64,000 nucleotides of DNA. Source: Clostridiales bacterium PH28_bin88. Its GTDB lineage: Bacteria > Bacillota > PH28-bin88. The notes under the pieces are model-generated. The model was not told the origin of the DNA. It saw only the letters and a list, made by a program, of their open reading frames with translations, and ran no database searches. Where the stretch lies: contig LAKY01000049.1 of NCBI GenBank assembly GCA_000987045.1, forward strand, positions 37,735 to 101,734, read 5' to 3'. Both the position numbers and the translations under genes were made by a program. Shown piece after piece: positions 2,240 to 18,791 of this stretch (position 1 is the stretch's first letter; the number at the start of each line of letters is the position of its first letter).

Positions 2240-2378
2240 TTTCTCACCTCCTTTCTTCCTGCTATAGCTTTTTTAAACTATTCATAAAAATAATACCACA
2301 GTTGGTCCCTTTTTCCAAGACATTTCTCAACATTATTAAGGCCTTCCCCGCTTTTTTTAGGAAGGCCCTCTCATTGCG

Positions 2379-3680: not shown

Positions 3681-3823
3681 TTACCCCGGCTCCTCTCTTC
3701 CTTTGCTGCTTTGCTGCAACGTCCCCTTGCATAGGTTTCTACAGTTACCCCGGATCTCCTGCCAAAAATCCAGTTAAATTGAGGCAACACCCACCAGCCA
3801 AGTACTTTTCTAGTGGAGTGCCG

Positions 3824-6244: not shown

Positions 6245-6373
6245 AATAAAATAATACCTCCACTGACTCCGCAAAGTTATAAAATGAGCTTTCAGGTAGT
6301 TTTCGTTTCGCTCAATCAAATCCAAAGCCATCGGTTTTAATTCTGCATTATGTACTTTTCTCCTTTTTTCGGG

Positions 6374-7816
6374 TTAAGAAAAATGTTGGATTAGGATGCT
6401 CAATACGGGAAAACAAAGAGGGACCAGCCCGACCGGCCTGTCCTCTTCCCAGCCTTTTAAAATGCGGTACATCTCATCCTGGCGGGAAGCCATCACCTGT
6501 TGCCATTCCTTGATGCCCTTGTATTCCTCTCTGAAATGTTCCTGATCCTGTCTGATAAGATACGTGTAGGTCACAACCGGTGACGATACCGGCAGGTGGC
6601 GCAGTTTGGACCATGCGCCGGCGCCGTCCAGCGCCCCGGCCCCTGCTTCCACAGGGTTAAAGTGATCAATTGGGCGTGCGCCGGCGATAATGGCCTGTTT
6701 GATAGAAGCAGGCGACGTCTTTAGACCAGACCTGGAGGCACTGTCCAGAAGAAGGGCGACCACGCCCGCCGTGTGGGCGGATGCGATACTGGTCCCCTCT
6801 ACCAGGGAGTAACCGGTGCCCTTCCAGGTCGGGAAGGTGGAAACAGCGCCTCCCGGGGCAATCACTGTAGGTCCCATCATCCCATCCTGCCTGGGCCCCA
6901 CGGAACTGAAGTACCACAAGGTCTCGCGGGGCACCTGGTAACCGTAGTCTTCCTGCCACATGGCCGGGGATATGTACGCCCCCACGCCGATAGCGCTCCT
7001 GGCATTTCCGGGAGTCGCCAGCGAAGCAAGACCCGGCCCCTTGTTGCCAGCCGCGACGGTAAAAACGACGCCATATTGCTCCGTAACCTTGTCAACCAGT
7101 TGGGTAAGGGTATTGTAACCGGAAGTTAAGTCCCTGTAGTCAGCAAGGCTGAGGTTAATCACCCTCGCACCCGCCTGGGCAGCATAACGAATGGCTTCCG
7201 CCACTTTATCCCAGTCCGACTTCCCGTTTTTGTCGAGAGCCTTAATAACCAGAAGTTGGGCGCCCGGGGCAACACCTTTGACGGTACCGTTAGCGGCCAC
7301 CACGCCAGCAACCTGGGTGCCGTGACTGTTTCCGTCGAACCCCAGGATTACCTCGCGAGCCCCGGTTTTTATCTCACTGATCACGAAGGAAATACCCATA
7401 TTTCCGCTGGAGCCCGGAAAACTGGCGGTTCCCTGGGCTAACCGGTACTCGCGGAGCGGAACCTCGTTGCCCAGGTTCCGGTCACCATCGGTGTCGACAT
7501 ACACCAGGTCAAAACGGCCCGCCTCCCACGGGTCGGTCACTACCACCAGGAACCGGTCTGAAGTTACACCGTTGTTATTCAAGTCCAGTCCAGCTCTGGC
7601 TTCCTCCCAAAACCCGTAATAGAAACTGCCGCTCTGGGAGTACAGTCTTTTAAAGTTATACTGCTGTCCACCAATGGTATAGCTGTCTTGCCCAGAAGCG
7701 ACCCTTTGGCCGTTTAATAATGTGAACCCCATCTTGCCCGATTTTCCATCCACACTTTCCAGTTCACCATAAAAATCATATTTACTTCCAAACTGCTCCA
7801 TCAAGCGGTTGACCAT
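6374..7816 (-). pseudogene. Fragment of an SLH/S8 subtilisin-like protease paralogue; lacks the SLH domains and the Asp-box region and has a divergent C-terminus
   Basis: Aligns to residues of roughly 195-690 of the 10066-13299 protein (MVNRLMEQFGSKYDFY..., GHGTQVAGV, GTSIASAHTAG). The segment carrying IAIIDTGID is missing. Homology stops abruptly near 7850, where a PIN fragment on the other strand begins. Confidence 0.7.
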
Positions 7817-8033
7817 GGCCGCGGCCTCAGCCCTGGTGGCTAACTCGCTGCGGAGGTTGCAAGAGGCCGGATTAACGGCTATGGACGCCCTTCACATATC
7901 ATGTGCCGAAAAAGGTAAAGCCGACGCCTTGCTCACTACCGATGACAAGTTGGTCCGACAGTCTGCGCGAACGAAAGCTCTGATCAAAATCAAGGTAGCA
8001 AATCCGATTAACTGGCTAATGGAGGTGCTTTGA
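7809..8033 (+). pseudogene. C-terminal fragment of a PIN-domain nuclease (copy of 16987-17427)
   Basis: From LQEAGL onward (about 7856) it is near-identical to the C-terminal third of the 146-aa PIN protein. The N-terminal catalytic part is absent. Confidence 0.75.
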
Positions 8034-8239
8034 TGATACAGGATCAAGCCGCAACTCCCAATCAAATCAGGAAAGCCGGGATAGATGCCTTATCTAAAAC
8101 CCTCGGTCCCGTAGGGATGACACGGTTTTTACAGCAGTTCGACCCAGGAAAAGGTGATTATACCAAAGAAAGAGAGCAGTGGCTTGGCGGAATAAGCATC
8201 GAACAGGTCGTCAAAGAGGTTCATCGAGAGATGGATTAA
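8030..8239 (+). CDS. Small protein partnered with the PIN nuclease (putative antitoxin), orphan copy
   Basis: 69 aa, near-identical to 17428-17634. Its start overlaps the stop of the PIN fragment (TGATG). Confidence 0.6.
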   Translation: MMIQDQAATPNQIRKAGIDALSKTLGPVGMTRFLQQFDPGKGDYTKEREQWLGGISIEQVVKEVHREMD

Positions 8240-8352
8240 CCAGTCTTCTGGGGAGCAACTTGGCCTATTACCAGGTCCGAATTTTCGATTTGAAGGTCGG
8301 GATCAGAGAGTTGCCTTGATGCTATGACACCTAACGTATTCTTCTTATGATA

Positions 8353-8386
8353 GGGCTTACCTTTAATTCAAGGGAAAGCCCTTTTC
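8353..8386 (+). terminator. Rho-independent terminator after 8030-8239
   Basis: GGGCTTACC...GGGAAAGCCC stem followed by TTTT. The equivalent structure follows the second copy at 17643-17680. Confidence 0.6.
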
Positions 8387-8589
8387 ACATCGCAAGGAGG
8401 ACCTTCAAGCATAATAACAGTTGCTCCGAATGGGGGAATGCGGTATCGCCCATCCCGTCTGAAGGTTGCGGCTACTGCCGCTGCCGCGAGTGGCCGCCAT
8501 GTTTGTACGCACTGTGCTCAAATTTTATTCGCGCTATCTTCGCCATCTTTAATCACCCACTAAACTTCTATCTTCTATCAAAACTTCTA

Positions 8590-9054
8590 TCGAAACCGCC
8601 CATTCACCTCTCGCCTCTATAGGCGAGAGGATAAATGGGCGGTCGGGCGTTAGCCCGGTAATGTTTGTTGATAATTGCTAAAAGTTGCTGAAAATATAAT
8701 CAGTAACTCATTCGCTAAAGTTCTGGTGTAATAATGAAACTTGACAGCAATTATCATTCAGTGTTCAAGCTGACTTATCACCTTGTCCTGGTGGTCAAGT
8801 ACCGCCGGAAGGTGATTAACGACCAGGTTGCTGCACGCATCAAGGAAATTGGCGAGTATATCGCGCCAAGTTACGCCAAAGGGAAAAGATTGAATCCCCA
8901 TAGTCCTGGCGCACGCGACTTCGTTCTTCTGGGTCAATCGAAAATTTTGCCAGCAGGTAGTAGGTATAAGAATTATGGCTCAACAATCAGTAAATACCTG
9001 ACTATTGAGCCTTTTACGCAAAACTTCCGATTGTCCCCTCTAAGAACCGTCCCG
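8590..9054 (+). mobile_element. Degenerate IS200/IS605-family element (left-end hairpin, truncated tnpA, conserved right-end module)
   Basis: Long imperfect palindrome CCGCCCATT..CTCTCGCC-tctata-GGCGAGAG..AAATGGGCGG at about 8598-8645. A tnpA N-terminal fragment follows, then a module (8839-9054) that recurs at 14283-14437 and 17811-18030. Confidence 0.55.
8734..8880 (+). pseudogene. tnpA: IS200/IS605 Y1 transposase TnpA, N-terminal about 48 aa only
   Basis: MKLDSNYHSVFKLTYHLVLVVKYRRKVINDQVAARIKEIGEYIA matches the conserved YHxVxxxKYRRKV start of IS200-type TnpA. The HUH and catalytic Tyr regions are absent. Confidence 0.6.
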
Positions 9055-9060
9055 ATTCCC

Positions 9061-9399
9061 TTAAACAATTTCAACAAACCCTATTAAAATATCTGCCACT
9101 TCTTTCACGATGTCTTTTGGTGCTTTTTCATAAAAAGATACATTTCTAGCGTGTATGTCTAAAGCTTTTACCTGTTCACATATAATAACTCCTGTTGTTT
9201 TAGTTCTTTCATCCAGTTCTATATGAAGAGGAAAATCTCTGTTTGTGTTAGTAATAGGGCATACCATGGCTATTTTAGTAAATTTATTATAGGAATTATT
9301 ACTAACAACCAATGCAGGTCTTGTTCCTTTTTGTTCATGTCCTGCTTGTGGATCAAATTCTAAAAATACAATATCACCTTGCTCTGGTATATATCCCAT
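9061..9399 (-). CDS. mazF: MazF/PemK-family endoribonuclease toxin
   Basis: YIPEQGDIVFLEFDPQAGHEQKGTRPALVVSNNSYNKFTKIAMVCPITN is the classic MazF/PemK signature. The region is AT-rich. Confidence 0.9.
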   Translation of the reverse strand: MGYIPEQGDIVFLEFDPQAGHEQKGTRPALVVSNNSYNKFTKIAMVCPITNTNRDFPLHIELDERTKTTGVIICEQVKALDIHARNVSFYEKAPKDIVKEVADILIGFVEIV

Positions 9400-9647
9400 T
9401 AAAACACCTCTTTACCCGTTGGTTTTCCAGTATCCCATTCGCTACACGTATAATCTCCTTTATACTCGGCTATTCTTTCTTCTAATGTTTTATGTTTTTT
9501 AACGGGAACAATGACCAGATTGCCATCTATAACTTTTATTTCTACCTTATCATTTTCATTGAGTTGTGCCATTTCAAGAATAGCCTTCGGGAGTCTTACC
9601 GCCTGACTATTTCCCCACTTTTGAATTGTGGTATACATATCCATCAC
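9399..9647 (-). CDS. mazE: MazE/AbrB-fold antitoxin
   Basis: IQKWGNSQAVRLPKAILEMAQL is a SpoVT/AbrB swapped-hairpin motif. Its stop overlaps the mazF start. Confidence 0.85.
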   Translation of the reverse strand: MMDMYTTIQKWGNSQAVRLPKAILEMAQLNENDKVEIKVIDGNLVIVPVKKHKTLEERIAEYKGDYTCSEWDTGKPTGKEVF

Positions 9648-9658
9648 CTCTCACTCGA

Positions 9659-9687
9659 AGTATATACCTTGTATCTACATCTGTCAA
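9659..9687 (-). promoter_or_regulatory. Sigma-A type promoter of mazEF
   Basis: The minus strand reads TTGACA-17 nt-TATACT about 12 nt upstream of the mazE ORF region. Confidence 0.6.
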
Positions 9688-9741
9688 TGATTGTTTTGCC
9701 TTAAAACATGTCTCGGAGTACCAGTCACCATCTCCAATAGG

Positions 9742-9808
9742 CTATCTTTCCTGTTTAATTTTTTCTGCCAACCACAACTTAATCATGGTCTGATAAAGGT
9801 TCCCTTTA
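9742..9808 (-). pseudogene. 3-prime fragment of a BrnA-like antitoxin gene
   Basis: Nucleotide-level copy of the last 65 nt or so of 16155-16484. It is fused at about 9809 to a DUF4258 fragment. Confidence 0.55.
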
Positions 9809-9960
9809 CCTCGGGAGGCAGAGAGAGTTGAACATGTAAAGGTCTTCCCTTCTTTGTTTGACGTAAATAAGGCAGCTTGGTGAATATTTATCTTCAGGAT
9901 ACTCTTCGACAATTTCTCCGGTTAAAATCACTTCTTCTACTTCCAACCTATCGATCGACC
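9809..9960 (-). pseudogene. DUF4258-family toxin fragment (1-nt deletion, 3-prime end missing)
   Basis: Copy of the internal part of 15664-15960 (DRLEVEEVILTGEIVEEYPEDKYSPSCLIY). A frameshift follows, and the C-terminal IVVITIYEPDP part is lost. Confidence 0.65.
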
Positions 9961-9980
9961 TCCGGTGATTGTTTTCAGTG

Positions 9981-10048
9981 CCTGCAAGACACAGGAACCG
10001 TCCCCATGTCTTCTGCCTGCAAGACACCGGGAACCGTCCCCATGTCTT
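9981..10048 (+). repeat. Two tandem units of the GAACCGTCCCCATGTCTT arm motif
   Basis: cctgcaagacacaggaaccgtccccatgtctt followed by ctgcctgcaagacaccgggaaccgtccccatgtctt. Confidence 0.9.
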
Positions 10049-10065
10049 AAGCACAATATGCACAA

Positions 10066-13000
10066 CTAGTTGATGCTAATGGTTATATCCTTGGATGAAG
10101 GGGTAATGGGAAAAGTAACCCGCCCCCTCTGCACTTCCATCACCCGACCGTCAATCTCCAGCACCGTGTCGACGGGACGCAGGGTCTGGGGGTCGCGCAC
10201 CTGGAGGGTGACATAGGTGGGTCTGCCAGGAACCAGTTCCCGGGGAAGCAACCCGATCACCCAGCGAGGCTTAAGGCTGTCCTTTTCATTGATCTCATCC
10301 AGTTGAACAGCCAGTTGGTAAGAAGAAAGGTCTTTGCCGAACAAGCTCAAAGCAGCTGAACTGTACACCACCATTTCCCAGTTGCCCGGCTTGGGATTCT
10401 CCACCGTTTTGGTAACATACCCCTGCACGATAGTGCCCTCAGGTCCCAGGCCGACATAATCGCTCATGATTACTTCCTGCCCGTCGGGGCTGATCAGGTG
10501 AAAACGCACCCGTCCCTCGTACTGGCCCTGGGTCAGCGGGACTTTAAGGCTAAAGGTAGCACGGTTTGTACCCGGGGGAACGCGGAAGAAGTACCTGCGA
10601 TGCTGGCCCGCCTCCAAACCCCCCTCCAGCTCTTGCCGGAAGTCGTTTTGTGGTGTCAAAAGGTACGGTCGAATGACCGTGGACATTAACCTCAATTCCA
10701 TTCCAGGGGTAGTTGGCACTATTCCCTTGATAAAACCTGTGTACACACCCGGTTCATCCGGTACCTGGTACTCCAATGCCACCCTGCGGTTAATACCGGT
10801 TGGCAGCAAGGTCTGGCGCGGCACTGTACGCATCCATGGAACCATGGTTTCCCAGAAAACTGTGATGGGTTCGTTTCCCTGGTTAACCATGTTATAGGAC
10901 AACTGCCCGGGGATAAAATCCCTGGCGTACAGCCCTTCCCCCATACCTAATTGGCGGTTATAGGTATAAGCTACGACCGGAGAAGTAGGAGGGAGGTCAC
11001 GCAACTTGGTCCAGGCAGCGGCTGCATCCAGCGCCCCGGCGCCTGCTTCTACAGCATTAAAATGCTTAATCGCGCGTGCCCCGGAGATAATCGCCTGTTT
11101 AATAGAAGCGGGTGAGACATTAAGTTTCGACCTGGAGGCACTGTCCAACAACATGGCGGCCACCCCTGCCGTGTGGGCGGCAGCAACACTGGTCCCCTCT
11201 ACCAGGGAGTACCCGGTCCCCATCCAGGTGGGAGAAGTGGAAACAGTGCTGCCCGGGGCCACCACCGTAGGTCCCATCATCCCGTCCTGCCGGGGCCCTA
11301 CGGAACTGAAATACCACAAGGTCTCGCGGGGCACCCGGTACCCGTAGTCTTCCAGCCACATGGCCGGAGAGATGTACGCCCCCACGCCGATAGCGCTCCT
11401 GGCATTTCCCGGGGTCGCCAGGGAAGCAAGCCCGGGCCCCTTGTTGCCCGCCGCGACAGTAAAGACGATTCCATTTTGTGCCGAAACCCGATCCACAAGT
11501 TGGGTGAGGCTGTTGTAGCCTGAAGTCATGTCCTGGTAGTTGGCGAGGCTGAGGTTAATGACCTTCGCCCCCGCCTGGGCGGCATACCGGATGGCTTCCG
11601 CCAACCTGTCCCAGGCCGCCTGCCCGTTTTTGTCCAGGGCTTTAATAACCAACAGCTGCGCTCCTGGGGCAACGCCTTTGACGGTACCGTTCGCGGCAAC
11701 CACGCCAGCAACCTGGGTACCGTGCCCGTTTCCGTCAAAACCCAGGACTACCTCACGCGCCCCGGTTTTGATCTCGCTGATGACAAAAGATACACCTGTT
11801 GCCTGGCCGGTAGAAGGGAAGCTGGCTGTTCCGCGGGCCAAACGGTACTCGCGCAGCGGGACCTCGTTGGCAAGGTTGCGATCACCATCGGTATCTACAT
11901 ATACCAAGTCATAACGGCCCGCTTCCCACGGGTCGGTTACTACCACCAGGAACCTGTCCGAGGTTGAACCGTTACCATTTAAGTCTACGCCGGCCCTGGC
12001 TTCTTCCAGGAATCCGTAACGGAAATTCCCGCTCTGGGAGTACAATCCCTTAAAACTGTACTGCTGACCGCCAATGGTATAGCTCTCATGACCGGACGGC
12101 AAGGTTCCGGCAGTCGCCACACGTCCCTCGTCAGTATAGTCTTTAAAGTCAACCACCTTGCCCGAACCTGTGCTGGTAACCTGCAGGTCCGGGTGGGTAG
12201 GATCAATCCCGGTGTCAATAATAGCAATAAGCACACCCCGGCCGTCGGCGCCGGTAAGGGAGGCCAACTTGCTGGCACCGGCTTCCTGTTTGGTGATCTC
12301 CAGGCTCCGCCCCGGGGATGCTGCCGATAGCTCTCCCGAGGCGCTCACTATCTCTTCTCCGAGCTTACGGGTATAATTTGTTGCTTCAGAGCTAAACCCA
12401 GCCGCCGAAGAGGACCACTTCAGTTGAACAGCGTCATCCAGCGGTGCGGTCAGTACCTGGACAAAAGTGGCGGCACCCTCCGAGTCCAGATTAACAAAGG
12501 CGGGCCGGGGTAGGTCCTTCGCTGCATCTTCCAACCGGGCAGGCTGACCGCCGAGATAAGTTTTGGCCTTTGCAGAAAGGTTCACCTCGACCCTTTGGCC
12601 GTTTAATGTAAAACCAATCTTGCCGGATTTCCCATCCACACTTTCCAAGTTGCTGTAAAAATCATATTTAGATCCGAACTCATCCATCAGGCGGTTGACC
12701 ATTGCCGCAGCTTCGGCCCTGGTGGCCAGCTCACGAGGTCGAAAGGTATTGTCGGGGAACCCCCCTACCAGCTTTCTTTCAGAAGCAATCGTGATGTCAT
12801 GCTGTGCCCATGCCGGAATCTGAGCCGCATCTGTATAAGCCGGGAGCACACCGCTTTGTCCATCAATTCGCAGCGCCCGCACCAGCATAGTGGCCATGTC
12901 CATCCGGCGGATATAGTCCCCCGGGCGGAAGCTGCCGTCGTCAAACCCCCGGATAATGCCCAGTTCATAAGCCAACTGAATATATCCCCTGGCCCAGTGC

Positions 13001-13299
13001 TCAGCCCCCACGTCCCTGAAGACAGACGGCACAGTTTCCAGCGTCCAGACCTCGTCCTCCGCACCCAGGGCTTTAATGAGGATCTTGGCGAACTCAGCCC
13101 TGGTCACGTAATTTTTTGGCTGGAAAGCGCCGTTGGTATAGCCGTCGATTACCCCGTGACTGGACAGTAGATCTATATCAAGTTGCGCCCAGTGGCCTTT
13201 GACGTCTTCGAAGGCCAGGGCAGAACCAGCAACGAGAAAAACATAACCTGTCAAACAAAAAGCCAGGAAGAAGCCAACAAATGCAATCCGGCGTTTCAT
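10066..13299 (-). CDS. Cell-wall-anchored subtilisin-like (S8) serine protease with three N-terminal SLH domains
   Basis: Signal peptide, SLH repeats, Asp box IAIIDTGID, His box GHGTQVAGV, Ser box GTSVAAAHTAG, and a long C-terminal beta-rich region. Confidence 0.9.
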   Translation of the reverse strand: MKRRIAFVGFFLAFCLTGYVFLVAGSALAFEDVKGHWAQLDIDLLSSHGVIDGYTNGAFQPKNYVTRAEFAKILIKALGAEDEVWTLETVPSVFRDVGAEHWARGYIQLAYELGIIRGFDDGSFRPGDYIRRMDMATMLVRALRIDGQSGVLPAYTDAAQIPAWAQHDITIASERKLVGGFPDNTFRPRELATRAEAAAMVNRLMDEFGSKYDFYSNLESVDGKSGKIGFTLNGQRVEVNLSAKAKTYLGGQPARLEDAAKDLPRPAFVNLDSEGAATFVQVLTAPLDDAVQLKWSSSAAGFSSEATNYTRKLGEEIVSASGELSAASPGRSLEITKQEAGASKLASLTGADGRGVLIAIIDTGIDPTHPDLQVTSTGSGKVVDFKDYTDEGRVATAGTLPSGHESYTIGGQQYSFKGLYSQSGNFRYGFLEEARAGVDLNGNGSTSDRFLVVVTDPWEAGRYDLVYVDTDGDRNLANEVPLREYRLARGTASFPSTGQATGVSFVISEIKTGAREVVLGFDGNGHGTQVAGVVAANGTVKGVAPGAQLLVIKALDKNGQAAWDRLAEAIRYAAQAGAKVINLSLANYQDMTSGYNSLTQLVDRVSAQNGIVFTVAAGNKGPGLASLATPGNARSAIGVGAYISPAMWLEDYGYRVPRETLWYFSSVGPRQDGMMGPTVVAPGSTVSTSPTWMGTGYSLVEGTSVAAAHTAGVAAMLLDSASRSKLNVSPASIKQAIISGARAIKHFNAVEAGAGALDAAAAWTKLRDLPPTSPVVAYTYNRQLGMGEGLYARDFIPGQLSYNMVNQGNEPITVFWETMVPWMRTVPRQTLLPTGINRRVALEYQVPDEPGVYTGFIKGIVPTTPGMELRLMSTVIRPYLLTPQNDFRQELEGGLEAGQHRRYFFRVPPGTNRATFSLKVPLTQGQYEGRVRFHLISPDGQEVIMSDYVGLGPEGTIVQGYVTKTVENPKPGNWEMVVYSSAALSLFGKDLSSYQLAVQLDEINEKDSLKPRWVIGLLPRELVPGRPTYVTLQVRDPQTLRPVDTVLEIDGRVMEVQRGRVTFPITPSSKDITISIN

Positions 13300-13511
13300 A
13301 CCGATAACCCCATTTCAACCCGTCCTGTCAGAATCAAAGACATCTGTTTAATTCTTCACAAGGCGCTGTTCTCCTCTTACCGGGCCAGGAAAAATATTGG
13401 GAATAACCCCATTTCTTATTAAACGCTAAAGAAAACTCGGCTTGCGCTAAAAAGACTTGCCCATTTATGGGATTAGTCGCGTTGATGCCTCCACAAAGGA
13501 ATAGCCAATTT

Positions 13512-13712
13512 CTAGGTGCGGAAGCCTAGTTGCACAAAAATATATCGGCCTAATCCGCTCTGACCATAAGCATAGTATCTTCCATCCCGGCCTTTGCGAA
13601 TCAGGGGCTGACGATAGAAAACTTCTTCTACCTCTTCTACGCTAATACCTTGGCGCACAGGTTTCCAGTAGTGATTTAATTTCATAAATTCACATTCAAG
13701 AACCGCCCCCAA
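13512..13712 (-). pseudogene. BrnT-like (DUF497-type) toxin, C-terminally truncated copy
   Basis: YWKPVRQGISVEEVEEVFYRQPLIRKGRDGRYYAYGQSGLGRYIFV matches the 16444-16727 copy. It then diverges and lacks the ...RPITARGMTDDER end. Confidence 0.5.
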
Positions 13713-13860
13713 TGTGTTTTTCTAGACAGACAAGATGAAGAGAGCCGAAGCTCTCCTTTGGAAAGGTTTGTGCGGACGATCCCACTACCTGTGCAAGACA
13801 GGAGAACCGTCGCCATGTCTCCCATGTCTCCTGTCTCCCCAAAACTTCCGATTGTCCCCT

Positions 13861-14133
13861 CTAAGAACCGTCTCCTGCGTTAATCGCATAATGGAGCATC
13901 ATTCGAATAAATGCAGTATAACCAAGTCCATGTTTTCTGGCGACCCTCTTAATAGCCACCAAGTCTTCCTTCGGGATCCTAACAGTAATGTGAACCATTT
14001 CCGGCCTTTCAAACTCTATTTGGCTATCTTGCCATTCTAGTTCTTCTGTGTCTATACTGTCAAAGTACTCTGCCATCTCCTCAACACCAGCAAACTTTGG
14101 CATCTGTCTGTTATTGTTTTCTCCTTCCATCAT
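13861..14133 (-). CDS. BrnA/CopG-like RHH antitoxin
   Basis: C-terminus ITVRIPKEDLVAIKRVARKHGLGYTAFIRMMLHYAI resembles BrnA antitoxins (isiRl...K..A...G.gYQt). It lies downstream of a toxin fragment. Confidence 0.55.
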   Translation of the reverse strand: MMEGENNNRQMPKFAGVEEMAEYFDSIDTEELEWQDSQIEFERPEMVHITVRIPKEDLVAIKRVARKHGLGYTAFIRMMLHYAINAGDGS

Positions 14134-14154
14134 AGCGCCTCCTTTCAGAAGTAG

Positions 14155-14282
14155 TCATATCTCTTGCGTAACCGGATAGATGATACCATGACCTTCGTAG
14201 ATGAAAATAAAGGTTATGTACCTGCCTTCACCCGTTTTACCCAGGAAGCGATATGCTTTTTCCTTCGGGTTGCGATCAGCTA
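14155..14282 (-). pseudogene. C-terminal fragment of a BrnT-like toxin, truncated by the 155-nt repeat module
   Basis: KEKAYRFLGKTGEGRYITFIFIYEGHGIIYPVTQEI. The upstream part of the track ORF (14283-14373) is repeat-derived. Confidence 0.5.
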
Positions 14283-14437
14283 ATCCCCATAGTCCTGGCG
14301 CACGCGACTTCGTTCTTCTGGGGCCAATCGAAAATTTTGCCAGCAGGTAGTAGGTATAAGAATTACGGCTCAACAGTCAGAAAACACCTGACTATCGAGC
14401 CTTTTTGACGGGCAAAACTTCCGATTGATCCCTGTAC
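14283..14437 (+). repeat. Copy b of the conserved IS-associated module
   Basis: About 155 nt, near-identical to 8885-9054 and 17857-18030. It includes the hairpin GGCTCAACAGTCAG-aaaacac-CTGACTATCGAGCC plus TTTTT. Confidence 0.9.
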
Positions 14438-14461
14438 GAACCGTCCGCAATAACCCATAGT

Positions 14462-14761
14462 TTAGGAGTGCCAGGCACCATCCGACCCTTTTAAGTAAAT
14501 CGAATCAGGACAGATATCCAGAATTCTACCGTCCAACTCCCAGGTAATTGCTCCGTTTCCTTTGGAAATGAACACACGCTTGAATTTGTTCCAATCCTTT
14601 AAGGGTTCAAAAACTCCATATAGTTTGTCCTTCATATGGTATTTCCTTATTTCGCCATTATTAAATTCCACGACAAGTGTGTAATCGGGCCTGGCTTCAA
14701 CTCTGGTAGCCTTCTTTATTCCGGTTTCGAAATACTTCTTGGCAATAGCAATCTCGTCCAT
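14462..14761 (-). CDS. DUF2442-family protein
   Basis: VEARPDYTLVVEFNNGEIRKYHMKD...FEPLKD...ITWELDGRILDICPDSIY fits the DUF2442 pattern. Confidence 0.7.
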   Translation of the reverse strand: MDEIAIAKKYFETGIKKATRVEARPDYTLVVEFNNGEIRKYHMKDKLYGVFEPLKDWNKFKRVFISKGNGAITWELDGRILDICPDSIYLKGSDGAWHS

Positions 14762-14773
14762 CTTTCTTCACTC

Positions 14774-15034
14774 CTATTTTAGACCTTCAATGGGGAATAA
14801 TTCCTGATTTTTCGAAGCCAAATTCCACTCTTCAAAAAGCTCTTCTTGATGCAACGCCGCCCACCCTAAGACCATCTTTTCAATCTTGTTTGGAAGTTTA
14901 CCATGTAGTATTTCCAGTTCTCTTATATCAACTACCGCTTCTTGACCGGCATACTCAGCATGAAAATGTGGAGGCAAATGGTCTTCCCAGTACATGTAAA
15001 TCTTAATGCCTCTAAACTGGCAGATTATTGGCAA
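14774..15034 (-). CDS. DUF4160-family protein
   Basis: FRGIKIYMYWEDHLPPHFHAEYAGQEAVVDI is the DUF4160 signature. It is paired with a downstream DUF2442 gene, as is usual. Confidence 0.75.
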   Translation of the reverse strand: MPIICQFRGIKIYMYWEDHLPPHFHAEYAGQEAVVDIRELEILHGKLPNKIEKMVLGWAALHQEELFEEWNLASKNQELFPIEGLK

Positions 15035-15175
15035 TGGCTGTTACCTCCTTTTCTTGCCTTATTTTCTATTATACCATAAAAACTAGTGGAAACAACAAAT
15101 CCCTCCACGGCTCTACGGCCGGGGCGCCAAAAGGAAAAGGGATCCGCCCGAAGTCCGAACCCCTTCCCCTGTAAT

Positions 15176-15243
15176 AACCTTCCCCATGTCTTCCTCAATG
15201 TGTTTCCTGCCTGCAAGACAGCGGAACCGTCCCCCTTGTCTCA
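15176..15243 (+). repeat. Solo arm motifs of the GGGGAC-hairpin family
   Basis: ttccccatgtcttcc ... cctgcctgcaagacagcggaaccgtcccccttgtctc. Confidence 0.8.
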
Positions 15244-15400
15244 ATCGCCTCAAACAAGCCATAATCGCCGAAAATGGAACTTGACAAAATGGTGTGATGG
15301 TGTTCTCGCTGGGAGAGGTGTAAGAAATAATCCTGAGGATGGCCTCGAAACTATTGATTTAACAAGGGGTTGTATTTTTCGGCAATGGCTCTAAGGAGAA

Positions 15401-15658
15401 TTAAGGAGTACTAGGCACCGTCCCTCGTTTTTTCTGGCTATAATCGAAAACCGGTACCATAACCTTTTTCACTGGCTTATATTCCTGCTTCGCAAACTTC
15501 AGCAACATGTCCGTAACATCACAAGAATAAGTTCTCTCCCCGCATTTAGTGCAAACATCAGCAGGTACATTTTCCACAAAAATATACTTTCCGTCATCTT
15601 CATAACTAAATGTTACAGTTCGCTTTTCGGTTTTACCTCCGCAGAAAACACACTGCAT
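15401..15658 (-). CDS. YgiT/MqsA-type zinc-finger protein (putative antitoxin)
   Basis: CVFCGG...VENVPADVCTKCGERTY is a four-Cys YgiT-type finger. Confidence 0.7.
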   Translation of the reverse strand: MQCVFCGGKTEKRTVTFSYEDDGKYIFVENVPADVCTKCGERTYSCDVTDMLLKFAKQEYKPVKKVMVPVFDYSQKKRGTVPSTP

Positions 15659-15663
15659 AGCAA

Positions 15664-15960
15664 TTACCTCCTGATTTTATAGTCAATCCACTGTCCAGGA
15701 TCAGGTTCATAAATTGTAATAACTACTATCCTGGGAGGCAGAGAGAGTTGAACATGTAAAGGTCTTCCCTTCTTTGTTTGACCGTAAATAAGGCAGCTTG
15801 GTGAATACTTATCTTCAGGATACTCTTCGACAATTTCTCCGGTCAAAATCACTTCTTCTACTTCCAACCTATCGACCTGTCCCCATGTCTCTATAATGGT
15901 TCTCCCGAACCGTTGACATGACATGACTAGATCAACGGAATTCCATTGTATTAAAAACAT
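15664..15960 (-). CDS. DUF4258-family protein (putative toxin); N-terminus partly repeat-derived
   Basis: LEVEEVILTGEIVEEYPEDKYSPSCLIYGQTKKGRPLHVQLSLPPRIVVITIYEPDPGQW. The codons ETWGQV upstream are the gagacatggggaca repeat motif, so the true start is uncertain. Confidence 0.6.
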   Translation of the reverse strand: MFLIQWNSVDLVMSCQRFGRTIIETWGQVDRLEVEEVILTGEIVEEYPEDKYSPSCLIYGQTKKGRPLHVQLSLPPRIVVITIYEPDPGQWIDYKIRR

Positions 15961-16154
15961 CAGACTCTTTCAATTCACATTGAAGAAACATCCCCAATAT
16001 GCTGTTATTTTCAATCCAGTAACTGTTTTGAATGATAAATGAAGATAATTTCTATAATTCCCGTTTTTTTTAACCGGTAGACTATCCGAAATGGGTGAAG
16101 TAAGACATGGGAACTGTCCCCTTGTCTCCCTCCCAAAGTATTCTGTCTTTCCCC

Positions 16155-16484
16155 CTATCTTTCCTGCTTAATTTTCTCTGCCAACCACATCTTGATCATG
16201 GTCTGATAAGGGATCCCTTTACCCTCGGCGATTTTTTTTATTTGATTTAGATGCTTACTGTTGACCCGTATGTTTATTCTTGTAGTAGTGGGCCTTTCCC
16301 CTTCCATCTCGAAATCTACCGGCTCCAGTTGATTCCAATATGGTGCTGTGGAATGCGTTTCCCAATATTCGGCCGCCTGCTCGTCATCATGAATTCGGGG
16401 CATCTCAGGCACATTTTTCTTTTCTGGAAAGTTTTCTCCTTTTCTACCCACGTTGATGCTCCCTCCTGTAGAGTTTTCTTTCAT
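16155..16484 (-). CDS. BrnA/CopG-like RHH antitoxin
   Basis: INIRVNSKHLNQIKKIAEGKGIPYQTMIKMWLAEKI matches the BrnA C-terminal pattern. Confidence 0.6.
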   Translation of the reverse strand: MKENSTGGSINVGRKGENFPEKKNVPEMPRIHDDEQAAEYWETHSTAPYWNQLEPVDFEMEGERPTTTRINIRVNSKHLNQIKKIAEGKGIPYQTMIKMWLAEKIKQER

Positions 16485-16727
16485 CGTCAGTCATTCCCCT
16501 GGCAGTGATTGGTCTGATTATTCCTCTACCCTTGTACACAAATACCACAAAAATATATCGCCCTAATCCGCTCTGACCATAAGCATAGTACTATATCTTT
16601 CATCACGTCCTTTGCGAATCATGGGCTGATGATAGAAAACTTCTTCTGCCTCTTCTACGCTAATACCATGGCGTACAGGTTTCCAGTAGTTTGCTTCGTC
16701 CCATTTAAACGTCCTGCCCTTCAACAT
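16444..16727 (-). pseudogene. BrnT-like toxin with an internal frameshift (about 5-nt insertion)
   Basis: MLKGRTFKWDEANYWKPVRHGISVEEAEEVFYHQPMIRKGRDERY, then a stop. The shifted frame continues YAYGQSGLGRYIFVVFVYKGRGIIRPITARGMTDDERKLYRR. It overlaps the brnA-like start. Confidence 0.6.
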
Positions 16728-16986
16728 CAATTACCCCAACACCGCTGTACGTACATTGTACCCACGCATAAGACATTTGTCAACAACCAGCAGAAAGACA
16801 CTTCTTTGAAGTTATGAAGTTGTCTGTGACTTAATTTCGAAATTCACATTCAAGTACCGTCCCCATGTCTCCTCACACTCAACAATTTCTTTATTTTATT
16901 GGGATATGGATATGGAAAAGCTTCAGCGAAAGTACTATAATATAATAAGTAGAAGGGTTGACCCTGATTGAGGGGAATGACTTTTC

Positions 16987-17427
16987 GTGAGAATCTATCT
17001 TGATGCTTGCTGTCTCAACCGCCCTTTTGACGATCAGACCCAAGACCGAATCAGGTTGGAATCGGAGGCGGTTCTTTCAATTTTGAACCGTTGCCAGATG
17101 GGAGAATGGCAATTAATAGGCAGCGAAGCCCTAGATTATGAAATATTCAAGATACCGGATGATGACCGTAAGCAAAAAGTATTGATCCTCGCTGGTCTTG
17201 TCCAGTCGAAGGTATTCCTTGACGTAAAGGTGGTGCAACAGGCCAACCTGTTGCAGGAGGCCGGGTTAGCGGCTTTAGACGCCCTTCACATATCATGTGC
17301 CGAAAAAGGTGGGGCCAACGCCTTGCTTACTACTGATGACAGGTTGGTCCGACAGGCTGCGCGAACGAAAGCTCTAATCAAAATCACGGTGGCAAATCCG
17401 ATTAGCTGGCTAATGGAGGTGTTTTGA
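16987..17427 (+). CDS. PIN-domain nuclease (146 aa, GTG start)
   Basis: MRIYLDACCLNRPFDD... and ...LDALHISCAEKGGANALLTTDDRL show PIN-like acidic residues. Confidence 0.7.
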   Translation: MRIYLDACCLNRPFDDQTQDRIRLESEAVLSILNRCQMGEWQLIGSEALDYEIFKIPDDDRKQKVLILAGLVQSKVFLDVKVVQQANLLQEAGLAALDALHISCAEKGGANALLTTDDRLVRQAARTKALIKITVANPISWLMEVF

Positions 17428-17634
17428 ATGATACAAGATCAAGCCGCAACTCCCAACCAAATCAGGAAAGCTGGGATAGATGCCTTATCTAAAACCCTCG
17501 GTCCCGTAGGTATGACACGGTTTTTACAGCAGTTTGACCCAGGAAAAGGTGATTATACTAAAGAAAGAGAGCAGTGGCTTGGCAGAATAAGCATTGAACA
17601 GGTCGCCAAAGAGGTTCAGCGAGAGAAGGAGTAA
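17428..17634 (+). CDS. 68-aa partner of the PIN nuclease (putative antitoxin encoded downstream)
   Basis: The ATG follows the PIN stop with no gap. It is near-identical to 8030-8239. Confidence 0.55.
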   Translation: MIQDQAATPNQIRKAGIDALSKTLGPVGMTRFLQQFDPGKGDYTKEREQWLGRISIEQVAKEVQREKE

Positions 17635-17642
17635 AAATAAAT

Positions 17643-17680
17643 GGCCTTACCCTCAATTCAATGGGAAGGCCTTTTTTTTT
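17643..17680 (+). terminator. Rho-independent terminator
   Basis: GGCCTTACCC...GGGAAGGCC stem followed by T9. Confidence 0.75.
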
Positions 17681-17810
17681 GATAAGGTGGACCTTTTCGT
17701 CTTAGAGGTACCAGACCCTCCCGCCATTTACCAGGGTGTTCTTTTGTCGAATTTTTGGATTATCAGGTACCATTCTTTACGCGCAAGGGGAACCGTCCCC
17801 ATGTCTTCAC

Positions 17811-18030
17811 ATCAAGGAAATTGGCGAGTATATCCCGCCAAGTTACGCCAAAGGGAAAAGATTGAATCCCCATAGTCCTGGCGCACGCGACTTCGTTCTT
17901 CTGGGCCAATCGAAAATTTTGCCAGCAGGTAGTAAGTACAAGAATTACGGCTCAACAGTCAGTAAACACCTGACTATTGAGCCTTTTTGACGGGCAAAAC
18001 TTCCGATTGATCCCTGTAAGAACCGTCCCC
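17811..18030 (+). repeat. Copy c of the IS-associated module (includes tnpA codons IKEIGEY...)
   Basis: Near-identical to 8839-9054. It starts immediately after a gaaccgtccccatgtcttcac motif. Hairpin plus T5 at 17949-17988. Confidence 0.9.
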
Positions 18031-18791
18031 AGTGTCTCATGCACGGTCTGCCGTCCCCATGTCTTTGTAGACAGGAGAACCGTCCCCTTGTCTCCCAACT
18101 GTATCCATATCTTTCTAGATACTTCATCAATACCTTCCAGGCTGCCGTAAAAATCGTATTTTGTTCCATAAATATGCATCATTCGGTTGACCATAGCTAC
18201 GGCCTCAGCTCTAGTGGCTAGATGACGAGGGCGAAAGGTTTTGTCGGGGAACCCCCCTACCAGCTTTCTTTCAGAGGCAATCGCGATGCTTTGCTGTGCC
18301 CAAGCCGGAATTTGTTCTAAGTCTGCGTAAGCTGGTAGTACGGAGCGTTCTTCTTCAATCCGCAGGGCCCTCACCAGCATAACGGCCATGTCCATCCGGC
18401 GAATGTTTTCATTCGGCCGAAAGGTTCCATCGTCAAACCCCCTGATCATGCCTAGTTCGTAAGCGAGTTGAATATAACCCCTTGCCCAATGCTCGGCTCC
18501 CACGTCCCCAAAAACGGAAGGTACCGTTTCTAGAGCCCAGACCTCGTCCTCCATACCAAGCGCCTTAATTAGGATTTTGGCGAACTCTGCGCGAGTTATG
18601 TTATTTTTAGGTAGGAAAGTACCATTAGGATAACCGTCAACTACCCCCTGACTAGAAAGCAAGTCTATATCAAGCTGAGCCCAATGACCCTTTACGTCAT
18701 CAAAGGCAAGGGCAGCACCAGCAATACTAAACGTAGCACCAAGCAAACATAAAGAAAGGAAAAGACCAAGAAATATGAGTCTACGAGTCAT
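17952..18791 (-). pseudogene. N-terminal (signal peptide plus three SLH domains) fragment of an SLH/S8 protease paralogue
   Basis: Aligns to residues 1-225 or so of the 10066-13299 protein. Homology ends near 18095, where the reading frame runs into GGGGAC-family repeats. Confidence 0.7.
18017..18100 (+). repeat. Cluster of three GAACCGTCCCC-type arm motifs
   Basis: gaaccgtccccagtgtctc, ctgccgtccccatgtctt, gagaaccgtccccttgtctcc. Confidence 0.85.

What the first reader, a model, noticed from the sequence alone, without database searches (positions are those of the whole stretch)
8030..18100. Dense, decaying toxin-antitoxin island with AT-richer composition
About 10 kb holds mazEF and three BrnT/BrnA-like modules: one truncated, one cut by a repeat, one frameshifted. 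It also holds DUF4160/DUF2442, DUF4258/YgiT plus a second frameshifted and truncated DUF4258 copy fused to a BrnA fragment, a PIN module with partner, and an orphan partner. The segments are visibly more AT-rich than the flanking genes. Repeat motifs of the form (G)AACCGTCCCC(A)TGTCT separate the modules from one another. This layout resembles cassette arrays or defence/addiction islands. I found no integrase or recombinase in the window.
Basis: partly seen in the sequence, partly recalled or inferred. Interest (0 to 1): 0.6.

Follow-up and report, generated by a model that had tools for sequence, protein, structure and literature searches.

The report
Decaying toxin-antitoxin junkyard, not integron
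Two AT-rich gaps beside a cell-surface protease gene hold a pile of toxin-antitoxin gene pairs, three apparently intact and the rest broken by small mobile repeats and duplications; it is an ordinary but clear example of how such selfish genes pile up and decay, and it is not an integron-like cassette array.

Summary
Three tandem SLH-subtilase paralogues (one intact, two remnants) bracket two low-GC stretches, 7.85-10.07 kb and 13.3-18.1 kb. Their GC is 43% against 54.5% for the genome, in the lowest 3-4% of 1-kb windows.

They carry MazEF, three BrnT/BrnA modules, DUF4160/DUF2442 (DhiTA-like), DUF4258/YgiT, a PIN gene with a 68-aa partner, and several fragments. Only MazEF, the DhiTA-like pair and PIN+partner look intact. 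In all four half-modules the toxin is the broken gene and the antitoxin is whole.

The GAACCGTCCCC-TGTCT motif is real (23 matches against 0.16 expected), but it is not a cassette site. It belongs to a genome-wide REP hairpin family. Its RAYT transposase lies on another contig, flanked by inverted copies, both here and in a relative.

Other breakpoints are an IS200 tnpA stub, three copies of an IS91/ISCR-type oriIS-like end, and a MITE-like repeat.

The genome has no integron integrase. The window has no tRNA gene and I saw no attC-like sites. The nearest recombinases, a Xer-like pair, lie about 15 kb away. The matching slot holds YefM-YoeB in one relative, and a second relative has no TA genes upstream of the protease orthologue.

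Verdict: a toxin-antitoxin accretion and decay zone of a known kind.

The parts
6374..7816 (-). SLH-subtilase paralogue A', a remnant. It lacks the SLH N-terminus, an internal ~490 nt and the C-terminal domain.
   Evidence: 81-82% nt identity to 10991-12096 and 12588-12732 of the intact paralogue.
7856..8033 (+). PIN toxin, C-terminal 58 codons only. It is joined head-on to the truncated protease A' at about 7847-7856.
   Evidence: 90-92% nt identity to 17250-17427. Pfam PIN E=9e-4, matching profile positions 81-116 only.
8030..8239 (+). Orphan but whole copy of the 68-aa PIN partner (presumed antitoxin).
   Evidence: 94% nt and 93-95% aa identity to 17428-17634.
8598..8875 (+). IS200/IS605 left-end palindrome (8598-8645) and the first ~47 codons of a Y1 transposase (8734-8875).
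   Evidence: Pfam Y1_Tnp 32.6 bits, profile positions 1-39 of 121. The palindrome folds at -24.5 kcal/mol, z = -7.9. The fragment is 70% aa identical to the intact tnpA at G000:C62.
8876..9059 (+). R230 copy 1: an IS91/ISCR-type oriIS-like end with nested palindromes, ending ...AACTTCCGATTG.CCC....GAAC. It abuts the mazF stop codon.
   Evidence: A homologue lies about 250 nt downstream of a Y2_Tnp/Zn_Tnp_IS91 transposase gene in G003.
9061..9647 (-). mazE (9399-9647) and mazF (9061-9399), intact and overlapping by one base.
   Evidence: Pfam PemK_toxin 94.3 bits (profile 1-105 of 109) and MazE_antitoxin 56.7 bits.
9742..9954 (-). Fusion of a BrnA C-terminal fragment (9742-9814) with a middle fragment of DUF4258 (9813-9954).
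   Evidence: 91% identity to 16155-16228 and 98% to 15733-15875. The order of the two pieces is reversed relative to the source copies, as expected for a deletion across a tandem duplication.
9970..10050 (+). REP hairpin doublet between the DUF4258 fragment and the 3' end of protease B.
   Evidence: The hairpins fold at -4.4 and -6.8 kcal/mol, z about -2.9.
10066..13299 (-). Intact SLH-subtilase (S8) gene B, 1077 aa and 56.7% GC. It splits the island in two and is not part of the AT-rich DNA.
   Evidence: Orthologues at 50-65% identity exist in G001-G003.
13427..13537 (.). One copy of a MITE-like interspersed repeat with at least 40 copies in the genome. It truncates the BrnT N-fragment.
13512..13712 (-). 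BrnT toxin, N-terminal fragment. Its 3' part is replaced by the MITE-like repeat.
   Evidence: 90% nt identity to 16546-16690. Pfam BrnT E=0.03.
13795..13880 (+). One REP hairpin (13805-13820) followed by the last 41 nt of an R230 tail (13840-13880). The tail supplies the last codons and the stop of BrnA1.
   Evidence: 33 nt are 100% identical to 9019-9051.
13861..14133 (-). BrnA1, a CopG-type antitoxin, essentially whole.
   Evidence: Pfam CopG_antitoxin 36.7 bits, profile 2-77 of 79.
14155..14281 (-). BrnT toxin, C-terminal fragment. Its 5' part is replaced by R230 copy 2.
   Evidence: GEGRYITFIFIYEGHGIIYPVT aligns with GLGRYIFVVFVYKGRGIIRPIT of the frameshifted BrnT. No HMM hit on its own.
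14282..14453 (+). R230 copy 2, an oriIS-like end, 9 nt from the DUF2442 stop codon.
   Evidence: 91-96% identity to copies 1 and 3. 22-nt inverted arms.
14462..15034 (-). DhiTA-like pair, intact and toxin-first: DUF4160 (14774-15034) and DUF2442 (14462-14761).
   Evidence: Pfam 82.3 and 43.5 bits. NCBIfam DhiT 76 bits, below the equivalog cut-off of 100. DhiTA is a validated TA system in Dickeya (PMC8198452).
15170..15244 (+). Two REP hairpins.
15401..15960 (-). DUF4258 toxin (15664-15960) plus a YgiT/MqsA-type zinc-finger antitoxin (15401-15658). A REP-like insert at 15875-15890 replaces the toxin's conserved HAxxR...ER segment.
   Evidence: Alignment with intact paralogues at G000:C91 and C69.
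16011..16136 (-). Probable ParE/RelE C-terminal fragment. Its 5' end is a REP hairpin (16112-16127).
   Evidence: Pfam ParE_toxin E=0.02, profile positions 62-88 of 89. This assignment is tentative.
16155..16730 (-). BrnT (16485-16730, frameshifted by a 5-nt indel near 16590) and BrnA2 (16155-16484, intact).
   Evidence: BrnA2 scores CopG_antitoxin 63.3 bits.
16855..16870 (+). REP hairpin between the divergent BrnT and PIN promoter regions.
16987..17634 (+). PIN-domain toxin (146 aa) followed directly by the 68-aa partner. Intact, toxin-first.
   Evidence: More than 3300 PIN homologues and 100 partner homologues; the partner has no Pfam family. The same pair in the same order occurs in another Bacillota MAG.
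17785..18035 (+). REP hairpin (17791-17806), then a second copy of the IS200 tnpA stub's tail joined to R230 copy 3 (17810-18035).
   Evidence: 94-96% identity to 8838-9053, with the same tnpA/R230 junction, so the two are a segmental duplicate.
18049..18093 (+). REP doublet at the break of protease remnant C'.
18100..18791 (-). SLH-subtilase paralogue C', the N-terminal SLH part only.
   Evidence: Pfam SLH x3, 141 bits. 75% nt identity to 12633-13399.

Best explanation
This is a chromosomal accretion-and-decay zone for type II toxin-antitoxin (TA) modules. It occupies the two gaps around one SLH-subtilase gene, inside a segmentally duplicated cell-envelope locus.

Proposed history:
1. Low-GC TA operons arrived by horizontal transfer. 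They persisted because losing them is costly (addiction) and because the site tolerates insertions.
2. The region was then reshaped by repeated segmental duplication and deletion.
3. It was also invaded by mobile or repeated DNA of at least four kinds: REP hairpins spread by a RAYT (Y1 HUH) transposase encoded on another contig, an IS200/IS605 element, an IS91/ISCR-type element of which only oriIS-like ends remain, and a MITE-like repeat.

These events inactivated most toxins and left their antitoxins whole. That is the order of loss expected when toxin loss is harmless and antitoxin loss is lethal.

MazEF, the DhiTA-like pair and PIN+partner probably still work as TA pairs.

Shown: gene identities, breakpoints, repeat families, composition, absence of integron parts, and variability between relatives.

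Inferred: horizontal origin, order of events, and present activity of the three intact pairs.
For: - Family assignments for every module.
- GC of 43% against a genome value of 54.5%, in the lowest 3-4% of windows.
- Internal duplicates at 90-98% identity, and protease paralogues at 75-82%.
- Toxin broken and antitoxin whole in 4 of 4 half-modules: PIN stub/partner1, BrnT-C/BrnA1, frameshifted BrnT/BrnA2, and DUF4258 lacking its N-terminal motif/YgiT.
- Seven breakpoints coincide with repeats: REP at 15875, 16112, 17791 and 18049-18093; R230 at about 8875 and at 14282; the MITE-like repeat at 13525.
- 6 of the genome's 33 REP sites lie in this ~10 kb, while REP sites elsewhere are not low in GC.
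- REP-RAYT link: the G000:C15 protein scores 82.8 bits on NF047646 against a cut-off of 80. It has two REPs 37 nt upstream and a degenerate inverted copy downstream.
- Its G002 orthologue is flanked by inverted REPs 9 nt and 46 nt from the ORF.
- All 5 REP-rich genomes of 31 have a RAYT homologue, and no REP-rich genome lacks one.
- The slot is variable: YefM-YoeB plus two unknown ORFs at 37-47% GC in G003, and a two-component system in G002.
- PIN homologues at 55-60% identity are spread across bacterial phyla and archaea.
Against: - No expression or activity data exist; 'intact' rests on length and domain coverage only.
- Only three same-family genomes were available, none closer than 65% protein identity at the flanking gene. 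Strain-level gain and loss was therefore not observed.
- Low GC is typical of TA genes in this genome (paralogous pairs at 45-49%), so it does not prove recent transfer.
- The genome is a 99-contig assembly with 6% estimated contamination.
- The REP/RAYT co-occurrence counts related genomes, giving three independent lineages at most.
Confidence: 0.8

Rival explanations
1. Integron-like cassette array (a CALIN). Each TA module would be a promoterless cassette bounded by a recombination site and shuffled by an integron integrase acting in trans.
For: Ten of the eleven whole genes share one orientation, the partner1 copy at 8030-8239 being the other exception besides the PIN pair. Short repeats lie at several boundaries. 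TA cassettes are typical of chromosomal integrons (established knowledge)..
Against: - The best integron-integrase score in the whole genome is 94.5 bits against a cut-off of 265. The two nearest tyrosine recombinases score as Xer-like.
- The boundary motif is a 25-nt hairpin found on 19 contigs, mostly away from TA genes.
- The only 60-140-nt imperfect palindromes are the R230 copies, which are conserved in sequence with an IS91-type end in G003.
- Several boundaries have no repeat.
Confidence: 0.02
2. Remnant of one integrated mobile element (plasmid, ICE or prophage) that carried the TA genes as its stabilisation functions. The rest of the element would have been deleted.
For: Low GC and many TA genes. 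A homologous PIN+partner pair sits next to a phage-type integrase in another Bacillota MAG. A Xer-like recombinase pair with more TA genes lies 15 kb to the left.
Against: - No tyrosine or serine recombinase lies in or adjacent to the island. No tRNA gene, no flanking direct repeats, and no replication, conjugation or phage genes among the ORFs.
- The AT-rich DNA sits in two separate gaps split by a native-GC gene with orthologues in all relatives.
- The DNA between the recombinases and the island is normal-GC envelope-polysaccharide genes.
Confidence: 0.07
3. Rolling-circle capture. An IS91/ISCR-type element brought in or shuffled TA modules by one-ended transposition, and the three oriIS-like ends are its footprints.
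For: - Three R230 copies plus one tail, each next to a TA operon end.
- Nested subterminal palindromes.
- Terminal AACTTCC...CCC followed by GAAC, the complement of GTTC. This resembles the published ISCR oriIS sequences GCGGTTGAACTTCCTATACC and GTGGTTTATACTTCCTATACCC and the GTTC/CTTG target rule (PMC8894482, PMC13023784, PMC13181058).
- In G003 two of four copies also adjoin MNT/HEPN TA pairs.
Against: - This genome has no IS91-family transposase.
- The link between R230 and a Y2 transposase rests on one adjacency in G003.
- Copies 1 and 3 share the same left junction, so they arose by segmental duplication rather than transposition.
- Two G003 copies adjoin housekeeping genes.
- No terIS was identified.
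Confidence: 0.08

Closest known systems
Chromosomal clusters of type II toxin-antitoxin modules in variable regions, such as TA-rich genomic islets and the TA cassettes of Vibrio superintegrons
   Same: Many unrelated TA families packed together, lower GC than the host, variable between relatives, and a mix of intact, orphan-antitoxin and pseudogenised modules.
   Different: No integrase or attC sites. The modules sit between tandem paralogues of a surface protease. The breakpoints are REP hairpins and IS ends rather than cassette boundaries.
REP/REPIN-RAYT systems of Pseudomonas and Enterobacteria (PMC3116915, PMC5581495)
   Same: Short imperfect palindromes, extragenic and in tens of copies. 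A Y1 HUH transposase above the NCBIfam RAYT cut-off is flanked by inverted REPs.
   Different: The host is a Bacillota member. In the island the REPs are mostly direct tandem doublets in one orientation rather than inverted REPIN pairs. The RAYT carries a ~120-aa C-terminal extension and is multi-copy in two other genomes, G002 (same family) and G024 (same phylum).
IS91/ISCR family oriIS ends (PMC13181058, PMC8894482)
   Same: The region lies about 250 nt downstream of a Y2 transposase gene in G003. It has subterminal palindromes, an AACTTCC...CCC terminal motif, and is followed by GAAC/GTTC.
   Different: Only orphan ends are present here, with no transposase and no terIS. The match to the published oriIS is partial: a 7-mer plus the terminal CCC.
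DhiTA of Dickeya dadantii (DUF4160/DUF2442; PMC8198452)
   Same: Same domain pair, same toxin-first order, and closely spaced genes.
   Different: Below the NCBIfam DhiT equivalog cut-off (76 bits against 100). The phylum is distant and the pair is untested.

Membership tests
Type II TA, MazEF | PemK/MazF-fold toxin gene adjacent to an AbrB/MazE-type antitoxin gene, antitoxin first | tested here: met
   94.3 and 56.7 bits, both above the Pfam cut-offs, with full profile coverage and a 1-nt overlap.
Type II TA, MazEF | The toxin arrests growth and the antitoxin neutralises it | not testable with these tools
   Needs expression assays.
Type II TA, BrnTA | BrnT domain toxin upstream of a BrnA/CopG-type antitoxin | tested here: inconclusive
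   The BrnA genes pass Pfam PF12441 (36.7 and 63.3 bits against 28). All BrnT copies are fragments and score below the cut-off (20.3 and 15 bits against 34.5)..
DhiTA (NCBIfam NF048015 equivalog) | DhiT equivalog score of at least 100 bits | tested here: not met
   76.1 bits. It is a member of Pfam DUF4160 (82.3 bits against 23), and its partner is a member of DUF2442 (43.5 against 23.9).
DUF4258 (RelE/ParE-type) with MqsA-type antitoxin | DUF4258 domain plus a YgiT zinc finger, toxin first | tested here: met
   60.6 bits against 25, and TIGR03831 45.9 against 20.2. Two more such pairs exist in this genome. The island toxin lacks profile positions 1-13. The full MqsA model with its HTH domain is not met (28.7 against 30).
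Integron / CALIN | IntI-type integrase | tested here: not met
   TIGR02249 best hit is 94.5 bits against 265 across the whole genome.
Integron / CALIN | attC sites (57-141 nt, R''-L''...L'-R') after each cassette | tested here: inconclusive
   No attC model was at hand. Inverted-repeat scans find only 25-nt REP hairpins and the R230 palindromes. No GTTRRRY cores were seen by eye.
REP/RAYT | Short palindromic extragenic repeat in many copies | tested here: met
   45 copies at up to 1 mismatch against 0 for the reversed control. Hairpins fold at -3 to -6.8 kcal/mol.
REP/RAYT | RAYT gene flanked by inverted REPs, scoring above the family cut-off | tested here: met
   NF047646 scores 82.8 bits against 80. 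Flanking REPs are present in G000 and G002.
REP/RAYT | The RAYT cleaves and joins REP single-stranded DNA | not testable with these tools
   Biochemistry needed.
IS91/ISCR oriIS end | Lies downstream of a Y2 (IS91-family) transposase gene | tested here: inconclusive
   True for one G003 copy. This genome has no such transposase.
IS91/ISCR oriIS end | Subterminal palindrome(s) and an adjacent GTTC/CTTG tetranucleotide | tested here: met
   Nested inverted repeats of 17-22 and 14 nt. Fold energy -23.8 kcal/mol, z = -4.3. All 8 aligned copies are followed by GAAC.
Integrative genomic island | Integrase at one edge, tRNA or att direct repeats at the borders | tested here: not met

The most novel reading that the evidence does not exclude
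HUH-enzyme sites (REP hairpins served by a RAYT in trans, and IS91/ISCR-type oriIS ends) may be more than debris. They may act as the junctions through which TA modules are copied and reshuffled as single-stranded DNA. That would give Bacillota a cassette-shuffling system analogous to an integron array but without an integron integrase.
Probability: 0.07. Interest if true: 0.7.

Novelty: new member of a known kind. Interest (0 to 1): 0.3.

Why it matters
This locus is a compact record of how addiction modules live and die in a chromosome.
- In every half-decayed pair the toxin went first and the antitoxin survived. Some antitoxins may still give cross-protection.
- It shows that a 'separator' repeat can look like a cassette boundary and yet be a genome-wide REP element.
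- It ties that REP family to a RAYT transposase in a little-studied Bacillota lineage.
- It flags one widespread, unnamed PIN-partner family that behaves like an antitoxin.

None of this changes current understanding; it adds examples.

Tried and rejected
1. Group II intron 5' end inside R230 (a GTGCGCC match on the minus strand). Rfam gives nothing at gathering thresholds or at E<=1. Dropped.
2. R230 as the right end or omega-RNA region of the IS200/IS605 stub next to it.
   - There is no similarity above shuffled controls to the ends of the two intact IS200/IS605 elements of this genome.
   - R230 is not conserved as coding between copies.
   - In G003 it follows an IS91-family gene.
   - This reading is judged less likely but not excluded.
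3. Integron reading: rejected.
4. REPs preferring AT-rich DNA in general: not seen. Mean GC around REP sites is 54.1% against 54.6% for the genome, p = 0.35.
5. Known anti-phage systems: no PADLOC hit for ten island proteins.
6. tRNA or tmRNA as an integration target: none in the window.
8. IS91-like ends always adjoining TA operons: only 2 of 4 copies do so in G003.

Full report
**Setting.** The window is G000:C50:37735-101734 of a 4.98-Mb, 99-contig Bacillota genome with 54.5% GC. Only three same-family genomes are held, G001 to G003.

**Checking the observation: gene identities.**
- Left part (7850-10065):
  - a PIN C-terminal stub (7856-8033)
  - a whole 69-aa partner gene (8030-8239)
  - an IS200/IS605 left-end palindrome with the first ~47 codons of a Y1 transposase (8598-8875)
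  - a ~180-nt repeat I call R230
  - intact mazE and mazF (9061-9647; 57 and 94 bits)
  - a fusion of a BrnA C-terminal fragment with a DUF4258 fragment (9742-9954)
- Right part (13300-18100):
  - a BrnT N-fragment
  - BrnA1
  - a BrnT C-fragment cut by R230
  - DUF2442/DUF4160
  - a YgiT zinc-finger gene with DUF4258
  - a possible ParE/RelE C-terminal fragment (E=0.02)
  - BrnA2 with a frameshifted BrnT
  - a PIN gene directly followed by a 68-aa partner
- The BrnT frameshift is a 5-nt indel. The two halves read in different frames.

**Composition.** The two stretches are 42.9% and 43.9% GC, and only 3-4% of the genome's 1-kb windows are that low. The protease gene between them and the remnant to the left are 56-57% GC.

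**The motif.** It is far above chance, with 23 matches against 0.16 expected. Ten of the matches lie in the island.

**The frame of the island.**
- The AT-rich DNA sits around three tandem paralogues of an SLH-subtilase gene.
- B (10066-13299) is whole.
- A' (6374-7816) has lost its SLH N-terminus, an internal ~490 nt and its C-terminal domain.
- C' (18100-18791) is only the SLH N-terminus.
- The paralogues are 75-82% identical to each other.
- The surrounding genes are envelope-polysaccharide and S-layer genes, themselves duplicated.

**Internal duplicates are younger than the protease paralogues.** Identities are.
- PIN stub plus partner: 92%.
- IS200 stub plus R230: 94-96%.
- BrnT N-part: 90%.
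- BrnA tail: 91%.
- DUF4258 fragment: 98%.
- The BrnA/DUF4258 fusion at 9742-9954 has its two pieces in the opposite order to the source copies. That is what a deletion across a tandem duplication leaves behind.
- At about 7850 the truncated protease A' is joined head-on to the truncated PIN gene. This equals a deletion of the stretch that separates B from the whole PIN gene in the right part.

**What the separator motif is.**
- The full unit is AGACA-NN-GGAACCGTCCCC-N-TGTCT, a ~25-nt imperfect hairpin. As single-stranded DNA it folds at -3 to -6.8 kcal/mol, with z from -1 to -3.4.
- It occurs 45 times at up to one mismatch on 19 contigs, against none for the reversed control. It is therefore a genome-wide repeat, not an island-specific site.
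- On contig C15 a 269-aa protein scores above NCBI's cut-off for REP-associated tyrosine transposase (82.8 bits against 80; Pfam Y1_Tnp 62 bits). Two copies of the motif lie 37 nt upstream of its start. A degenerate inverted copy lies just past its stop.
- Its 56%-identical orthologue in G002 is flanked by inverted copies 9 nt and 46 nt from the ORF.
- Among 31 genomes, the five with six or more copies of the motif all have a homologue of this protein. Five more have the protein only, 21 have neither, and none has the repeat without the protein. My Fisher calculation gives p of about 0.0015. The five genomes represent only three lineages.
- This is the defining arrangement of REP/RAYT systems (PMC3116915, PMC5581495).
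- An earlier follow-up on the neighbouring GGGGAC-hairpin family found no support for an IS200-type link. For the AGACA...TGTCT family I find one.

**Why the island is so rich in REPs.** Six of the genome's 33 REP sites lie in about 10 kb, which is 0.2% of the genome. REP sites elsewhere are not in low-GC DNA (54.1% against 54.6%, p = 0.35). The enrichment is therefore specific to this place, as expected where insertions cost nothing.

**The other repeats: R230.**
- R230 sits at 8876-9059, 14282-14453 and 17865-18035, with a 41-nt tail at 13840-13880. In this genome it occurs only in the island.
- In G003 a homologous sequence ends about 250 nt downstream of the stop codon of a 382-aa protein with Y2_Tnp and Zn_Tnp_IS91 domains (213 and 105 bits). 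Three more copies lie at contig ends.
- R230 has nested inverted repeats and folds at -23.8 kcal/mol, z = -4.3.
- It ends ...CAAAACTTCCGATTGANCCC-NNNNN-GAAC in all eight aligned copies.
- Published oriIS sequences of ISCR27 and ISCR1 are GCGGTTGAACTTCCTATACC, 236 bp past the stop codon, and GTGGTTTATACTTCCTATACCC.
- IS91-family elements insert next to GTTC or CTTG and carry subterminal palindromes at oriIS.
- I therefore read R230 as an orphan IS91/ISCR-type oriIS-like end, with confidence of about 0.65.
- GAAC is also the first four bases of the REP core. Four of the eight copies are followed by a recognisable REP 3' half, so the element may have inserted into REP loops.
- This genome has no IS91-family transposase.
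- Copies 1 and 3 share the same junction with the IS200 stub, so they are segmental duplicates. Copy 2 has a different left junction, inside BrnT.

**The other repeats: MITE-like family.** A fourth repeat family is MITE-like, with at least 40 copies in the genome. One copy at 13427-13537 cuts off the BrnT N-fragment.

**Pattern of decay.**
- Seven breakpoints coincide with repeats:
  - REP at 15875 (inside DUF4258)
  - REP at 16112 (ParE-like stub)
  - REP at 17791 (IS200 stub copy)
  - REP at 18049-18093 (protease C')
  - R230 at about 8875 (IS200 tnpA)
  - R230 at 14282 (BrnT)
  - the MITE-like repeat at 13525 (BrnT)
- In all four modules where one partner survives, the whole gene is the antitoxin and the broken gene is the toxin:
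  - PIN stub with partner1
  - BrnT-C with BrnA1
  - frameshifted BrnT with BrnA2
  - DUF4258 with YgiT
- In the DUF4258 case, alignment with the two intact paralogous pairs elsewhere in the genome shows what was lost. The island toxin lacks the conserved HAxxR...ER segment, which a REP-derived ETWGQ replaces.
- Only MazEF, DUF4160/DUF2442 and PIN+partner have full-length genes on both sides.
- DUF4160/DUF2442 is the domain pair of DhiTA, shown to be a toxin-first TA system in Dickeya dadantii (PMC8198452). The gene here is below NCBI's DhiT equivalog cut-off (76 bits against 100), so it is a relative rather than the same protein.
- The 68-aa PIN partner has no Pfam family, but it has at least 100 homologues in several phyla and in archaea. 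It sits after a homologous PIN gene in another Bacillota MAG, and it is found alone in a deltaproteobacterial contig. Its survival next to a truncated PIN here fits an antitoxin role.

**Tests of the cassette-array and island readings.**
- No protein in the genome approaches the integron-integrase cut-off (94.5 bits against 265).
- The two tyrosine recombinases on the contig lie at C50:28.8-30.7 kb, about 15 kb left of the island. They score as Xer-like and are separated from the island by normal-GC envelope genes.
- There is no serine recombinase on the contig, no tRNA or tmRNA gene, no Rfam match and no PADLOC match.

**Relatives.**
- In G003 the syntenic slot between the S-layer gene and the protease orthologue (65% identity) holds YefM-YoeB, two unknown small ORFs and three REP-like motifs, at 37-47% GC.
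- In G002 the protease orthologue (62% identity) is preceded by a two-component system and no TA genes.
- At the DNA level only the short repeats of the right-hand half of the island (the part searched) are found in relatives.

**Verdict.**
- The finding is real and accurately described.
- It is a toxin-antitoxin accretion and decay zone shaped by duplication, deletion and four kinds of mobile or repeated DNA. It is not an integron-like array and not a bounded integrative island.
- That is a known kind of region, so interest is modest.
- The points worth keeping are the clean toxin-first decay pattern, the REP-RAYT link in this Bacillota lineage, the orphan IS91/ISCR-like ends, and the unnamed PIN partner family.

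**Limits.**
- There are no functional data.
- The IS91 link rests on one adjacency.

Noticed in passing
window 13427-13537, plus at least 40 other places in G000 (e.g. C46:21771-21881, C41:25142-25303, C10:64827-65029): A modular MITE-like interspersed repeat (core TAAAGAAAACTTGGCTTGCGCTAAAGAAGACTTGCCCATTTATGGGCTTAGTCGC...GGAAGCCTTAGTTGCACTTATGCC...). It is also present in G003 and has no Rfam match.
   Followed up: partly
window 15243-15397 and G000:C50:18495-18648(-): A 155-nt intergenic segment repeated at 85% identity about 35 kb away, downstream of a PIG-L-type deacetylase-like ORF. Meaning unknown.
   Followed up: partly
L002 (G000:C50:24000-38000) 1469-6730: A second TA cluster sits just left of the window, next to two tandem Xer-like tyrosine recombinase genes (323 and 309 aa) that overlap by 4 nt. 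By eye from the ORF translations it holds a PIN gene, a nucleotidyltransferase gene at 2441-2779, a second nucleotidyltransferase-like gene (4176-4541) with a downstream partner ORF (3703-4179), and a HicA-like gene.
   Followed up: partly
L002 10111-13981 and window 2379-6331: The chain-length-determinant gene and the O-antigen-ligase/TPR gene are present twice on the contig. The envelope locus itself is segmentally duplicated.
   Followed up: no
window 17428-17634 and homologues P0001-P0100: The 68-aa PIN partner belongs to a family with no Pfam model. It is found in Bacillota, Deltaproteobacteria, Competibacteraceae and Methanosarcinales. In one deltaproteobacterial contig it stands without a PIN gene among other small TA-like genes (L047).
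   Followed up: partly
G002 and G024: Homologues of the RAYT-like protein are present in 11-12 copies, some with internal stops, in G002 and G024. G000 has a single copy. In those genomes the protein behaves more like an IS than like a domesticated single-copy RAYT.
   Followed up: no
window 23862/23986, 24741/24865, 49776/49900: Pairs of motifs sharing the GAACCGTCCCCATGGC core lie in inverted orientation exactly 124 nt apart. They belong to a second, longer repeat family that is also present on other contigs.
   Followed up: no
L011 (G003:C54) 1062-1804 and L004 (G003:C31) 16-1424: In G003 two R230-like ends adjoin nucleotidyltransferase/HEPN toxin-antitoxin pairs.
   Followed up: partly
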